From a virus, in the UHGV virus genome UHGV-0141872: a DNA stretch of 12,686 nucleotides. One strand, written 5' to 3'. The translations under genes and the position numbers were made by a program. This document shows, in pieces, positions 6,047-12,686 of the stretch (positions within the stretch are counted from its first letter, which is position 1; every line of letters starts with the position of its first letter). The notes under the pieces were generated by a model. That model made no database searches. It saw nothing but the letters and a program-made list of their open reading frames with translations, and was not told the origin of the DNA.

Positions 6047-6121
<75 letters not shown>

Positions 6122-6124
6122 ATA

Positions 6125-6200
<76 letters not shown>

Positions 6201-9476: not shown

Positions 9477-9752
9477 CTACTCGTCGTCTATGAGTAGTCC
9501 GGCATGCGTCAGCGCATCCAGTGGCGCTTTCAACAGGTTGTCCAGGTCACGACGGCGCTTATCCGGTGGCTCCACAATAATCCTGATCGCCAGCTTTTCG
9601 GACAGGTTTAATTTCAGTCGCTGCTGGCTAACAACTAGCGCTACATCACGGCAATAACGCTTTCCTGCTTCCGAGATGAAATACGTATTGCCATGACGTC
9701 GCCAGTAGGTATTCACCGTCGGCGGGTAAGGCAAAACAAACTCTATACGCAT
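9477..9752 (-). CDS. rusA: RusA-like Holliday junction resolvase, truncated at 91 aa by an in-frame TAG; the frame continues to 9381 encoding the expected RusA C-terminus
   Basis: RRRDLDNL and LIDD motifs (RusA catalytic Asp cluster). The TAG at 9479..9477 falls where E. coli RusA has Gln (CAG); downstream in-frame FDGINIVRGLPICGGRLGVNI aligns with RusA [21 protein letters not shown]. ATG at 9752 preceded by AAAGAGGTTACTG. Confidence 0.7.
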   Translation of the reverse strand: MRIEFVLPYPPTVNTYWRRHGNTYFISEAGKRYCRDVALVVSQQRLKLNLSEKLAIRIIVEPPDKRRRDLDNLLKAPLDALTHAGLLIDDE

Positions 9753-11530: not shown

Positions 11531-11560
11531 AATAAAAACAAAAACCCGCCGAAGCGGGTT
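11531..11560 (-). terminator. Rho-independent terminator at the 3' end of the hok transcript
   Basis: Minus strand: AACCCGC-ttcg-GCGGGTT followed by TTTGTTTTTATTTT. An fbi-like hairpin CGAGGGAGAAATCCCTCG lies just upstream. Confidence 0.55.
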
Positions 11561-11628
11561 AAGTACGGGTGCGTTGAGGATGCCTGCCACATCAGAGGTG
11601 GCGAGGGATTTCTCCCTCGCTGGGTCTC

Positions 11629-11784
11629 TTACTCCTCAGGTTCGTAAGCTGTGAAGACAGCGACCTCCGTCTGGCCGGTTCAGATTCGTACCTCGCAGAG
11701 GTCTTTCCTCGTTACCAGTGCCGTCACTATGACGGTTAAACAGATGACGATCAGGGCGATTAACATCGCCTTTTGCTGCTTCAT
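11629..11784 (-). pseudogene. hokD: hok-family type I toxin gene (HokD/RelF-like) interrupted by an in-frame TGA at codon 35
   Basis: Translation MKQQKAMLIALIVICLTVIVTALVTRKDLCEVRI*TGQTEVAVFTAYEPEE matches my recollection of E. coli HokD (51 aa) except that the Arg codon is TGA (11682..11680). SD AAGGAG lies 9 nt upstream of ATG at 11784. Confidence 0.6.
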
Positions 11785-11900
11785 AGCCTGCTTCTCCTTG
11801 CCTTTCGGCACGTAAGAGGCTAACCTACATGTGTCTAGCATGAAATTGGCCTCAGATTAATGTTAAGCGTCTTGCAGGACGCGTAATGTTAACTGGGGCT
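11785..11900. promoter_or_regulatory. hok mRNA leader / mok-overlap region; expected location of the antisense Sok RNA and its promoter (plus strand)
   Basis: Inferred from the canonical hok/sok architecture (antisense RNA complementary to the leader of the toxin mRNA). An in-frame upstream ATG (MLDTCRLASYVPKGKEKQA...) is present in the leader. Exact Sok boundaries cannot be set from sequence alone. Confidence 0.3.
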
Positions 11901-11995
11901 TTTCTCTATCTGCCGTTGGTGTTCATGCCCGAGGCAGATAGCCTCAAGCACCCGCAGCCATTCTACTTAACTACCGCTACCTCGCCAATATGAAA

Positions 11996-12085
11996 TCAGT
12001 CTGAAAGGCGATCCATAAGAACAATAGCAAGACAATAAATCGCCATTACAGCTGTAATAGCCAGCGCACATTTGAGAACCAGCAC
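11996..12085 (-). CDS. Candidate small hydrophobic peptide, 29 aa (MLVLKCALAITAVMAIYCLAIVLMDRLSD)
   Basis: Found by manual translation. GTG start at 12085 with AGGAGG 5 nt upstream; single predicted TM helix. No family recognised; could be a chance ORF. Confidence 0.3.
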   Translation of the reverse strand: MLVLKCALAITAVMAIYCLAIVLMDRLSD

Positions 12086-12325
12086 CACAACCTCCTGTAT
12101 TGGACGTACACCAGTCCTGATGAATATGAGGCTATCTCGTCAGTGATTCAATACAACTATTGGGTATAGTTTCTCTGATTTTTTCTGTGGTAATGGGGCA
12201 CAACCACTAGTCACCACCAGCACTTCTTTTAATACGCAAAGTCCGCCACAAGCTAACCCCCTAGTCCGCTTTGAGCGAACAGCGGACGTTGGCCGACCGC
12301 TCTTAGCGGCAAACGCCACCAAATG

Positions 12326-12384: not shown

Positions 12385-12646
12385 TTATTCAGCAAAGCAC
12401 TTCCTGGCATGCTCTTCCACGAACGCCGCTACGGTTTCCGGCGCTTCAAGCGGCGGGAAGTGGTTTACGCCTTTCAGGATTTTCAGCTCCGCGCCGCCGC
12501 CCAGCACCTGCTGCAGCGCCGCTGCAAACGGAAGCGGGTTTGGCGCGTCATTTTCGCCCTGCAGAATAAGCGCTGGCGCGGTGATAGCATCATACTGATC
12601 GGCCATTTCATGATTCAGAAACGCAGCGGCATTGGCCTGCATCGAG
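12385..12646 (-). CDS. Alpha/beta-hydrolase fold protein, C-terminal fragment (N-terminus lies beyond the contig end); probably a host gene
   Basis: C-terminal translation ...ITAPALILQGENDAPNPLPFAAALQQVLGGGAELKILKGVNHFPPLEAPE... is typical of the cap/His region of alpha/beta hydrolases. GC content is clearly higher than in the prophage. The first 10 residues of the ORF-track protein (MGSEMCIRDS) are translated adapter. Confidence 0.6.
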
Positions 12647-12680
12647 CTGTCTCTTATACACATCTCCGAGCCCACGAGAC
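12647..12680 (+). other. Illumina Nextera (Tn5 mosaic end) adapter, a sequencing/assembly artifact at the contig end
   Basis: Exact match to CTGTCTCTTATACACATCTCCGAGCCCACGAGAC, followed by 6 nt that would be the start of an index. Confidence 0.95.
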
Positions 12681-12686
12681 GCTCAT

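What the first reader, a model, noticed from the sequence alone, without database searches (positions are those of the whole stretch)
11629..11900. hok/sok-type type I toxin locus whose toxin ORF is interrupted by TGA
The locus has the hallmarks of hok/sok: SD and ATG, a 51-codon frame matching HokD as I recall it, an fbi-like hairpin and a 3' terminator. Codon 35 is TGA where Arg (CGA) is expected, leaving a 34-aa peptide that retains the transmembrane segment but lacks the C-terminal tail. This is the second C-to-T nonsense change in the window (with rusA). Whether the truncated peptide is still toxic, or the locus is a domesticated decaying remnant, is open.
Basis: partly seen in the sequence, partly recalled or inferred. 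Interest (0 to 1): 0.5.

Follow-up and report, generated by a model that had tools for sequence, protein, structure and literature searches.

The report
Prophage hokD toxin gene, nonsense-inactivated
This is the well-known hokD/sok toxin-antitoxin locus of a Qin-like E. coli prophage, complete in its RNA control elements but with a real, rare stop codon that cuts the toxin to 34 residues and most likely kills it: ordinary gene decay, not a new system.

Summary
On the minus strand, 11534-11988, lies a complete hok/mok/sok locus. It has a promoter-like site, a 5' leader matching Rfam sok RF01794 (115 bits), an in-frame mok-like start, and hok SD/ATG. It also has an fbi element predicted to pair with the 5' end, and a terminator. 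The coding sequence is identical to E. coli K-12 hokD except for one base, CGA to TGA at codon 35 (11680-11682).

The stop is not a sequencing error. The same allele sits in at least five other assemblies of the same prophage at 99.8% identity or better. It also sits on at least two other hok haplotypes, each 1 nt from a CGA-bearing complete genome. It is rare:
- 0 of 7,867 places in 5,426 complete E. coli genomes
- 0 of 240 sampled viral and metagenome contigs
- absent from IMG/VR and from the GTDB representative genomes

The lost tail (residues 35-51) holds the conserved Glu and the TadA-edited Tyr/Cys position. In Hok of plasmid R1, 18 of 20 possible premature stops abolish killing. The best reading is a recently inactivated toxin in a decaying prophage, whose rusA also carries CAG to TAG, with Sok and the hok mRNA signals still intact. 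Residual toxicity, UGA read-through or an antidote-only role remain untested. This is a known kind of locus and of low interest.

The parts
11960..11988 (-). sigma-70-like promoter of hok mRNA (TTGGCG-17-TAGAAT)
   Evidence: Consensus scan, 9 of 12 matches, immediately upstream of the Rfam-defined 5' end. Function is inferred.
11779..11953 (-). hok mRNA 5' leader, holding the tac element, the mok translation-initiation region and the Sok target, up to the hok ATG
   Evidence: Rfam RF01794 (sok/CssrC), 115.3 bits versus gathering 59, full model 1-157. Identical in E. coli C and SC516.
11942..11953 (-). tac (5'-end) element GGGUGCUUGAGG
   Evidence: In the MFE fold of the 414-nt mRNA, positions 1-12 pair with 375-387, which is the fbi element.
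11680..11841 (-). mok-like upstream reading frame (ATG 11841), in frame with hok, now also ending at the TGA (53 aa instead of 70)
   Evidence: ORF list. The 70-aa intact form is on at least 1000 contigs in the collection.
11833..11906 (+). inferred Sok antisense RNA: single-stranded 5' tail complementary to the mok start region, then a long hairpin and a U-rich end
   Evidence: Fold gives -30.3 kcal/mol, z=-6.0, with 0 of 200 shuffles as stable. A candidate promoter, TTGCCT (11798-11803)-17-TAACCT (11821-11826), was read from the sequence but not picked up by the scan. The ends are inferred, not mapped.
11680..11784 (-). truncated hokD ORF: 34 codons plus TGA, with SD GGAG at 11794-11797
   Evidence: Translation. 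Pfam HOK_GEF covers profile positions 1-29 of 42.
11680..11682 (-). premature stop TGA at codon 35 (CGA in wild type)
   Evidence: Alignments. 0 of 7,867 places in complete E. coli genomes carry it. It is present in L004-L006, L010 and L014-L021.
11629..11679 (-). now-untranslated codons 36-51 plus the original TAA, unchanged from wild type. Includes the TACG TadA-editing motif at codon 47 (11643-11646).
   Evidence: The editing-site context comes from PMC12214031 and bioRxiv 10.1101/2025.08.07.668861.
11601..11621 (-). 3'-UTR hairpin GCGAGGG-AGAAAU-CCCUCGC, with a lineage-specific G-to-A at 11621 just 5' of it
11567..11579 (-). fbi (fold-back inhibition) element CCUCAACGCACCC. A lineage-specific C-to-T lies at 11565, 2 nt downstream.
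   Evidence: Pairs with the 5' end in the MFE structure of both alleles.
11534..11560 (-). intrinsic terminator of hok mRNA
   Evidence: 7-bp G+C-rich stem plus T-run.

Best explanation
The locus is a full-length, ancestral-type hokD/mok/sok cassette of a Qin/Rac-like lambdoid prophage. [quoted passage not shown] A single C-to-T transition turned Arg35 (CGA) into TGA. Translation, coupled to the in-frame mok-like start, now ends after the transmembrane helix and about 10 periplasmic residues. Missing are the periplasmic tail with the conserved Glu (HokD E40) and the Tyr47/Cys position recoded by TadA editing. The truncated peptide is most likely non-toxic and short-lived, so the toxin half is a recent pseudogene. 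It is one of several decay events in a prophage that also lost rusA to CAG-to-TAG.

Shown here: the anatomy, the mutation, its reality, its rarity and its recurrence.
Inferred: loss of toxicity, continued Sok and hok RNA expression, and neutrality or benefit of the loss.
For: Anatomy:
- Rfam sok hit and Pfam HOK_GEF.
- Promoter-like site and terminator.
- tac/fbi pairing in the MFE fold, with the C-to-U change altering energy by only 0.8 kcal/mol and one local pair.
- Sok-like hairpin, z=-6.

Identity:
- The coding sequence equals K-12 hokD apart from 1 nt, and the synteny is hokD-rem-ydfU-Q.
- Upstream of the stop, the 278 nt are identical to E. coli C and SC516.

The stop is real:
- The window equals ENA contig NODE_273 (L007).
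- TGA is present in the same prophage in L005, L010, L014, L016 and L021, with 1-19 mismatches over 2-10 kb.

Rarity and recurrence:
- 0 of 5,426 complete genomes, 0 of 240 sampled contigs, none in IMG/VR or GTDB representatives.
- The L017 and L018 haplotypes each differ by 1 nt from CGA-bearing complete genomes.
- The analogous R33* allele is in 7 complete genomes.

Loss of function, from the literature:
- In Hok of R1, 18 of 20 possible premature stops, Y48N, a C-terminal FLAG tag and stop-codon loss all abolish killing (PMC9841398).
- A stop-containing Hok R1 construct is non-toxic. CDS shorter than 40 aa (5.1%) or with internal stops (2.6%) were set aside as degenerate (bioRxiv 10.1101/2025.08.07.668861).
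- The periplasmic C-terminus has been proposed as the toxic domain of Gef/HokC (cited in PMC8509063).
- A Cys at position 46 is needed for toxicity of edited HokB, and in HokC/D/E that Cys is supplied by RNA editing (PMC12214031).
- HokD levels drop in an RseP-dependent way in vivo (PMC10470546).

Decay context: rusA TAG in the same lineage.
Against: - No assay of HokD(1-34) exists. The loss-of-function data are for Hok R1 and HokB, not HokD, and I could not see which 2 of the 20 R1 stop positions were not recovered.
- From my own knowledge, other type I toxins (TisB, Ibs, Ldr, ShoB) are TM-only peptides of 35 aa or fewer. PMC8509063 argues that the TM region contributes to HokC toxicity.
- Codons 36-51 carry no further changes and the regulatory RNA is untouched, so there is no sign of long-term decay.
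- The same stop on three or more haplotypes could mean selection rather than neutral loss.
- UGA is the leakiest stop codon in E. coli (own knowledge).
Confidence: 0.8

Rival explanations
1. Sequencing or assembly error. The true sequence is CGA and the contig (6.6x coverage, adapter-tailed) carries a miscalled base.
For: Coverage is low (contig name cov_6.59). Untrimmed Nextera adapter at the contig end shows imperfect read cleaning. No complete genome carries the allele.
Against: The same T, together with the two linked 3'-UTR changes, is found in independent isolate and metagenome assemblies of the same prophage: L005, L010, L014, L016 and L021, with distinct mismatch patterns. The same T, without those two changes, is also found on other haplotypes (L015, L017-L020).
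Confidence: 0.02
2. The 34-aa peptide is still an active membrane toxin, a TM-only toxin like TisB or Ibs, so the locus remains a working though altered toxin-antitoxin pair.
For: The TM helix and Cys15/Cys30 are retained. HOK_GEF is still matched at 49 bits. The regulatory RNA is fully intact. The allele persists in several lineages, one with 12 further similar places. PMC8509063 shows that the TM region matters for HokC toxicity.
Against: Premature stops throughout R1 hok are loss-of-function at native expression, and even small C-terminal changes (Y48N, FLAG tag, extension) abolish killing (PMC9841398). Truncated Hok R1 is non-toxic on induction (bioRxiv 10.1101/2025.08.07.668861). The conserved E40 and the edited Y47 are lost.
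Confidence: 0.08
3. Attenuated toxin by UGA read-through. A small fraction of ribosomes insert Trp at UGA-A and make full-length HokD(R35W), giving a low-dose toxin.
For: UGA is the leakiest E. coli stop (own knowledge). The downstream frame is perfectly preserved.
Against: No SECIS-like or other recoding RNA family is matched even at E<=10. The prophage tRNAs are ordinary Thr(UGU) and Gly(UCC), not suppressors. The downstream hairpin is equally present in wild-type CGA loci. A preserved frame is also expected for any recent mutation.
Confidence: 0.04
4. Antidote-only module. Loss of the toxin is selected because the locus still supplies Sok RNA, and Sok-titrating hok mRNA, in trans to other hokD copies of the same Sok-specificity type. 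This would protect the host from killing when a sister prophage is lost or arrives.
For: E. coli genomes carry a median of 2 and up to 9 related hok places. The Sok region is identical to wild type. Nonsense alleles recur: R35* on three or more haplotypes and R33* in 7 complete genomes.
Against: The recurrence is equally explained by huge sampling plus only about five codons in the gene that a C-to-T transition turns into a stop (Q3, Q4, R33, R35, Q38). The alleles are rare, under roughly 1 in 1000. No co-occurrence data could be obtained here.
Confidence: 0.06

Closest known systems
hokD (relF, b1562) of the cryptic prophage Qin, E. coli K-12
   Same: Identical coding sequence apart from the one base, an identical 3' UTR apart from three bases, and the same neighbours rem, ydfU and a Q antiterminator.
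   Different: In K-12, homology starts only at the hok SD. relBE replaces the whole promoter, tac, mok and sok leader, so K-12 hokD is intact in coding sequence but lacks its regulators. The window has the reverse state: a complete leader and a broken coding sequence.
Intact prophage hokD loci (WP_000813254.1), e.g. E. coli C and SC516
   Same: 99.1-99.3% identity over 431 nt with the same anatomy throughout.
   Different: They have CGA at codon 35. The window lineage additionally has G-to-A at 11621 and C-to-T at 11565 (sense strand) in the 3' UTR.
hok/mok/sok of plasmid R1 (post-segregational killing paradigm)
   Same: Same parts list: tac/fbi fold-back, an upstream leader ORF coupled to hok, Sok antisense RNA against the leader ORF's initiation region, and 3' processing. 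Same protein family (PMC9841398).
   Different: It is prophage-borne rather than plasmid-borne. The mok-like start is in frame with hok here (57 nt upstream). In R1, the published coordinates (mok ATG about 116, hok ATG about 174) put them in different frames. The toxin here is truncated.
Inactivated chromosomal hok loci of K-12 (hokA, hokC, hokE by IS elements; hokD by rearrangement) and the 'degenerated' hok CDS in RefSeq
   Same: They show the same phenomenon of hok decay in chromosomes and prophages (PMC12214031 introduction; bioRxiv 10.1101/2025.08.07.668861 reports 5.1% of unique CDS under 40 aa and 2.6% with internal stops).
   Different: The mechanism here is a single nonsense transition with every other element intact.

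Membership tests
Hok/Gef toxin family (Pfam PF01848) | Sequence match above the curated threshold | tested here: met
   49 bits for the 34-aa product and 82.9 bits for the repaired 51-aa product, against a cut-off of 22. PHROG 251 'MokW-like host killing' scores 114.7 bits. The NCBIfam Hok subfamily model NF007279 stays below its cut-off even for intact HokD (48.5 versus 73), so that model is uninformative here.
Hok/Gef toxin family (Pfam PF01848) | A product of about 50 aa: an N-terminal TM helix plus a periplasmic tail with the conserved Glu (R1 E41) and the Tyr/Cys48 position | tested here: not met
   The ORF stops after residue 34 and only profile positions 1-29 of 42 are encoded. The tail codons survive only as untranslated DNA.
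[quoted passage not shown] | hok mRNA leader and Sok region recognised by the RNA family model | tested here: met
   RF01794, 115.3 bits versus gathering 59, full-length match.
[quoted passage not shown] | Long-range 5' (tac) to 3' (fbi) pairing that closes the full-length mRNA | tested here: met
   In the MFE structure, nucleotides 1-12 pair with 375-387, for both the TGA and the CGA alleles. This is in silico only.
[quoted passage not shown] | An upstream leader ORF (mok) whose translation is coupled to hok | tested here: met
   ATG at 11841 with a GAGG SD, 19 codons upstream and in frame. The coupling itself is not testable here.
[quoted passage not shown] | An antisense Sok RNA with its own promoter and terminator hairpin | tested here: inconclusive
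   A strong plus-strand hairpin with a U-rich tail and a free 5' tail complementary to the mok start (z=-6). The candidate -10 box matches only 3 of 6 positions and was not reported by the scan.
hokD orthologue (Qin-type prophage locus) | Near-identity to K-12 hokD and conserved synteny with rem, ydfU and Q | tested here: met
[quoted passage not shown] | Toxin kills or depolarises the cell, Sok neutralises it, and the pair gives post-segregational killing or phage exclusion | not testable with these tools
   Needs expression and loss assays. Data on R1 and HokB in the literature predict loss of toxicity.

The most novel reading that the evidence does not exclude
The same R35* stop has arisen, or been patched in, on at least three different hokD haplotypes, and a sister stop R33* exists in complete genomes. 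The regulatory RNA stays intact in the loci examined here. This could mean that toxin-dead, Sok-proficient hokD loci are selected as antidote-only immunity modules against hokD-bearing sister prophages. Alternatively they could be low-dose toxins made by UGA read-through, rather than neutral wreckage.
Probability: 0.08. Interest if true: 0.45.

Novelty: already known. Interest (0 to 1): 0.15.

Why it matters
It matters little on its own. The locus is a natural loss-of-function allele of a textbook type I toxin, and it agrees with saturation-mutagenesis results on plasmid R1 hok. It has three modest uses:
- It is a clean natural pair (one base apart from wild type, regulators intact) for testing whether the Hok periplasmic tail is required for killing.
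- It warns annotators that 'partial HokD' entries mix true nonsense alleles with genes cut at contig ends.
- Together with rusA*, it marks this prophage lineage as decaying.

Tried and rejected
- **Sequencing error.** Rejected, because identical alleles occur in independent assemblies.
- **Native short Hok variant.** Rejected. The 51-aa CGA form is the norm and the downstream frame is still intact.
- **Selenocysteine or other recoding signal.** The hairpin after the UGA has a GGUC-containing loop, but no Rfam family matches even at E<=10, and the same hairpin is present in CGA loci.
- **Prophage suppressor tRNA.** The two tRNAs are Thr(UGU) and Gly(UCC).
- **Disturbance of hok mRNA folding.** The change costs 0.8 kcal/mol and one local pair, and tac/fbi pairing is unchanged.
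- **A Q38* (CAG to TAG) allele explaining the abundant 37-aa entries.** There is no exact match in complete genomes for this haplotype. Many 'partial' entries of 28, 35 and 37 aa are probably contig-end cuts.
- **Contigs ending at CGAATC[C].** Seven retrieved contigs end exactly there. I read this as selection bias of an exact-sequence look-up, not as biology.
- **Dcm or other methylation hotspot.** The mutated C is not in a CCWGG site, as read directly from the sequence.
- **R1 supplementary table.** The supplement listing which R1 stop positions were recovered is not held.
- **The hydrolase gene at 12385-12646 as a chromosomal flank.** It is prophage cargo, as sister contigs show.

Full report
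**What is there**

Read on the minus strand, window 11629-11784 translates to MKQQKAMLIALIVICLTVIVTALVTRKDLCEVRI*TGQTEVAVFTAYEPEE*. The 34-codon ORF ends at TGA (11680-11682). The next 16 codons and the original TAA (11629-11631) are still in frame.
- The 34-aa product matches Pfam HOK_GEF at E=4.5e-13. With the stop repaired to Arg, the 51-aa product matches at E=1.2e-23.
- Rfam's sok model (RF01794) matches 11779-11953 on the same strand at 115.3 bits against a gathering score of 59, E=3e-26. As its alignment shows, that model is written in the hok-sense direction and ends at the hok AUG.
- A sigma-70-like promoter (TTGGCG-17-TAGAAT) lies at 11960-11988. An intrinsic terminator lies at 11543-11560, followed by a T-run.
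- An ATG at 11841, with a GAGG SD, opens a mok-like frame 19 codons upstream of hok and in frame with it.
- Folding the 414-nt transcript (11953 to 11540) pairs nucleotides 1-12 (GGGUGCUUGAGG) with 375-387 (CCUCAACGCACCC, window 11567-11579). This is the tac/fbi fold-back that defines hok mRNAs.
- On the plus strand, 11834-11906 folds into a free 5' tail complementary to the mok start, followed by a long hairpin and a U-rich end (-30.3 kcal/mol, z=-6.0). That is the expected shape of Sok. Its promoter (TTGCCT-17-TAACCT, 11798-11826) is only my reading of the sequence and was not picked up by the scan.

**Which hok it is**

The coding sequence is identical to E. coli K-12 hokD (b1562) except for the one base. 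The neighbours are those of the Qin prophage: rem, a 92-aa ORF, ydfU (DUF968), rusA and a Q antiterminator. In K-12, homology begins only at the hok SD. Everything upstream is relE/relB. K-12 therefore keeps the coding sequence but has lost the leader, while the window keeps the complete leader. E. coli C, SC516 and thousands of other genomes carry the complete locus with CGA: 4,032 of 5,426 complete genomes have a place covering 80% or more of the query, with a median of 2 places per genome. Against the closest of these, the window differs at three positions, all transitions:
- the stop itself
- G-to-A at 11621
- C-to-T at 11565, both in the 3' UTR

The 278 nt upstream of the stop are identical.

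**Is the stop real, and how common is it?**

The window is ENA contig ERZ652483 NODE_273, at 6.6x coverage (L007). The same prophage carries the same three changes in other assemblies:
- Logan ERR10677351 (2 mismatches in 6.5 kb)
- SRR32969857 (1 mismatch in 2.2 kb)
- GCA_043674415.1 (6 mismatches in 9.4 kb)
- GCA_032526365.1 (1 mismatch in 11 kb)
- GCA_033742835.1 (19 mismatches in 10.5 kb)

It is therefore inherited, not a miscall.

The identical 431-nt haplotype also sits in a prophage whose flanks are only 92% identical (L006). TGA also occurs on other hok haplotypes (L015, L017/L020, L018, L019). The L017 and L018 loci each differ by a single base from CGA-bearing complete genomes (99.8% of 431 nt). 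The stop has therefore arisen more than once, or has been moved by very short conversion tracts.

It is nevertheless rare:
- No 100% match among 7,867 places in 4,328 complete genomes.
- 0 of 120 IMG/VR and 0 of 120 metagenome contigs sampled with an N at the site.
- No exact T-allele 30-mer anywhere in IMG/VR or in the GTDB species representatives.

The exact 34-aa and 53-aa products are recorded on 193 and 41 contigs. Part of these are genes cut by a contig end exactly at this codon (7 of 20 loci retrieved). The sister mutation R33* (CGA to TGA at codon 33) is in 7 complete genomes. A Q38* allele of this haplotype is in none.

**What the stop does**

Step 1, shown: the RNA-level cassette is unaffected. 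The C-to-U change removes one local pair and 0.8 kcal/mol, and leaves tac/fbi pairing intact.

Step 2, shown: the peptide keeps the TM helix and about 10 periplasmic residues. It loses residues 35-51, including E40 and Y47 with its TACG motif.

Step 3, inferred from the literature: this abolishes killing.
- In Hok of R1, at native chromosomal expression, 18 of the 20 possible single-substitution premature stops were recovered as suppressors. So were Y48N, loss of the stop codon (+17 aa) and a C-terminal FLAG tag (PMC9841398).
- A stop-containing Hok R1 is non-toxic on induction. E41 is among the few positions conserved in over 80% of homologues, and position 48 is nearly always Tyr or Cys (bioRxiv 10.1101/2025.08.07.668861).
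- The periplasmic C-terminus was proposed as the toxic domain of Gef/HokC (cited in PMC8509063).
[quoted passage not shown] In HokC/D/E that Cys is supplied by TadA editing of the Tyr codon (PMC12214031).
- HokD accumulation falls in an RseP-dependent way in vivo, and periplasmic trimming is thought to precede clearance of HokB (PMC10470546).

A genetically trimmed HokD should therefore be a harmless, quickly cleared stub.

Step 4, inferred: Sok and hok mRNA are still transcribed.

**Context of decay**

rusA in the same prophage carries TAG at codon 92 (9477-9479) where a homologue has CAG, and its frame also stays open to the normal end. The 91-aa RusA recurs in the sister assemblies. Two fresh C-to-T nonsense changes in one prophage fit relaxed selection on a resident prophage. 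Degenerate hok genes are documented: 5.1% of unique CDS are under 40 aa and 2.6% have internal stops in RefSeq (bioRxiv 10.1101/2025.08.07.668861). The K-12 hok loci are themselves mostly inactivated (PMC12214031).

**Rivals**
- Sequencing error is essentially excluded.
- Residual toxicity of a TM-only 34-mer cannot be excluded without an assay. From my own knowledge, other type I toxins are that short, and PMC8509063 stresses the TM region. The R1 data argue against it, however.
- UGA read-through or recoding has no support. No SECIS-like match was found, there is no suppressor tRNA, and the downstream hairpin is the same in CGA loci.
- An antidote-only role for a Sok-proficient, toxin-dead locus is compatible with the recurrence and with multi-copy hokD genomes. 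The recurrence is equally expected, however, from very large sampling and only five codons that a C-to-T transition turns into a stop.

**Verdict**

The thing is a known locus (hokD/sok of Qin-type prophages) carrying a rare, real and recurrent nonsense allele. It is best read as a recent toxin pseudogene inside an intact regulatory shell. Novelty: already known. Interest is low, at 0.15.

Noticed in passing
window 12647-12686: The contig ends in the Nextera adapter CTGTCTCTTATACACATCTCCGAGCCCACGAGAC followed by GCTCAT, the start of an index read. Homology to every sister assembly stops exactly 40 nt from this end. These bases are non-biological, and the N-terminus 'MGSEMCIRDSS' of ORF 12385-12675(-) is an artefact.
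   Followed up: yes
window 9477-9752 (-), stop at 9477-9479: rusA is cut to 91 aa by TAG where a homologue (ST2350) has CAG, and the rest of the frame is open to the normal end. The same 91-aa RusA is in sister assemblies L004, L005, L016 and L021. This is the second C-to-T nonsense change of this prophage lineage.
   Followed up: yes
window 11996-12088 (-): A small hydrophobic ORF (about 29-30 aa, GGAGG SD, GTG start) lies just upstream of the hok promoter. It is intact in 74 of 264 hok-bearing loci fetched. Sources call it only 'hypothetical protein'. It has no Pfam, NCBIfam or PHROG match. Among pairwise single-base codon differences, 46% are synonymous, which hints at coding constraint.
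   Followed up: partly
hokD codon 33, window 11686-11688 (-); complete genomes H96-H102: A sister nonsense allele, R33* (CGA to TGA), is present in 7 complete E. coli genomes, where it is annotated 'Hok/Gef family protein'. R35* is in none.
   Followed up: partly
L008, L009, L011, L012, L013, L022, L023 (contig ends): Seven retrieved contigs end exactly at ...CGAATC or ...CGAATCC, the polymorphic base of codon 35. Their 'HokD partial' products mimic the nonsense allele. This is probably selection bias of the exact-sequence look-up plus assembly breaks inside a multi-copy repeat.
   Followed up: partly
window 11827-11848 (-), sense positions 113-134: Variation between hok haplotypes is concentrated in the mok-start/Sok 5'-tail region. 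That is the segment setting Sok/hok pairing specificity, so copies in one genome may not cross-neutralise.
   Followed up: no
window 11539-11620 (-): The hok 3' UTR gives a sub-threshold match to the Salmonella prophage sRNA family isrK (25.6 bits versus gathering 50, E=0.002 in a 651-nt search). It may be shared prophage 3'-UTR ancestry or chance.
   Followed up: no
window 11643-11646 (-): The TACG motif at hokD codon 47, the TadA A-to-I editing site giving Y-to-C (PMC12214031; bioRxiv 10.1101/2025.08.07.668861), is intact but now lies in untranslated RNA downstream of the stop.
   Followed up: no
window 12385-12646 (-) and sister loci L004, L014, L016: The alpha/beta-hydrolase gene at the window edge belongs to a cargo block (abhydrolase, metallo-beta-lactamase-fold protein, DJ-1/AraC regulator, two unknowns). 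The block is inserted between the DUF977 gene and hokD of this prophage. Other prophages carry QueH, KwaAB, NUDIX/HAD or AIPR genes at the same spot, so it looks like a moron or defence hot spot next to hokD.
   Followed up: partly
window 6047-6200 (-): There are two prophage tRNA genes, Thr(UGU) and Gly(UCC), between the methylase and the lysis genes. Neither is a suppressor.
   Followed up: yes
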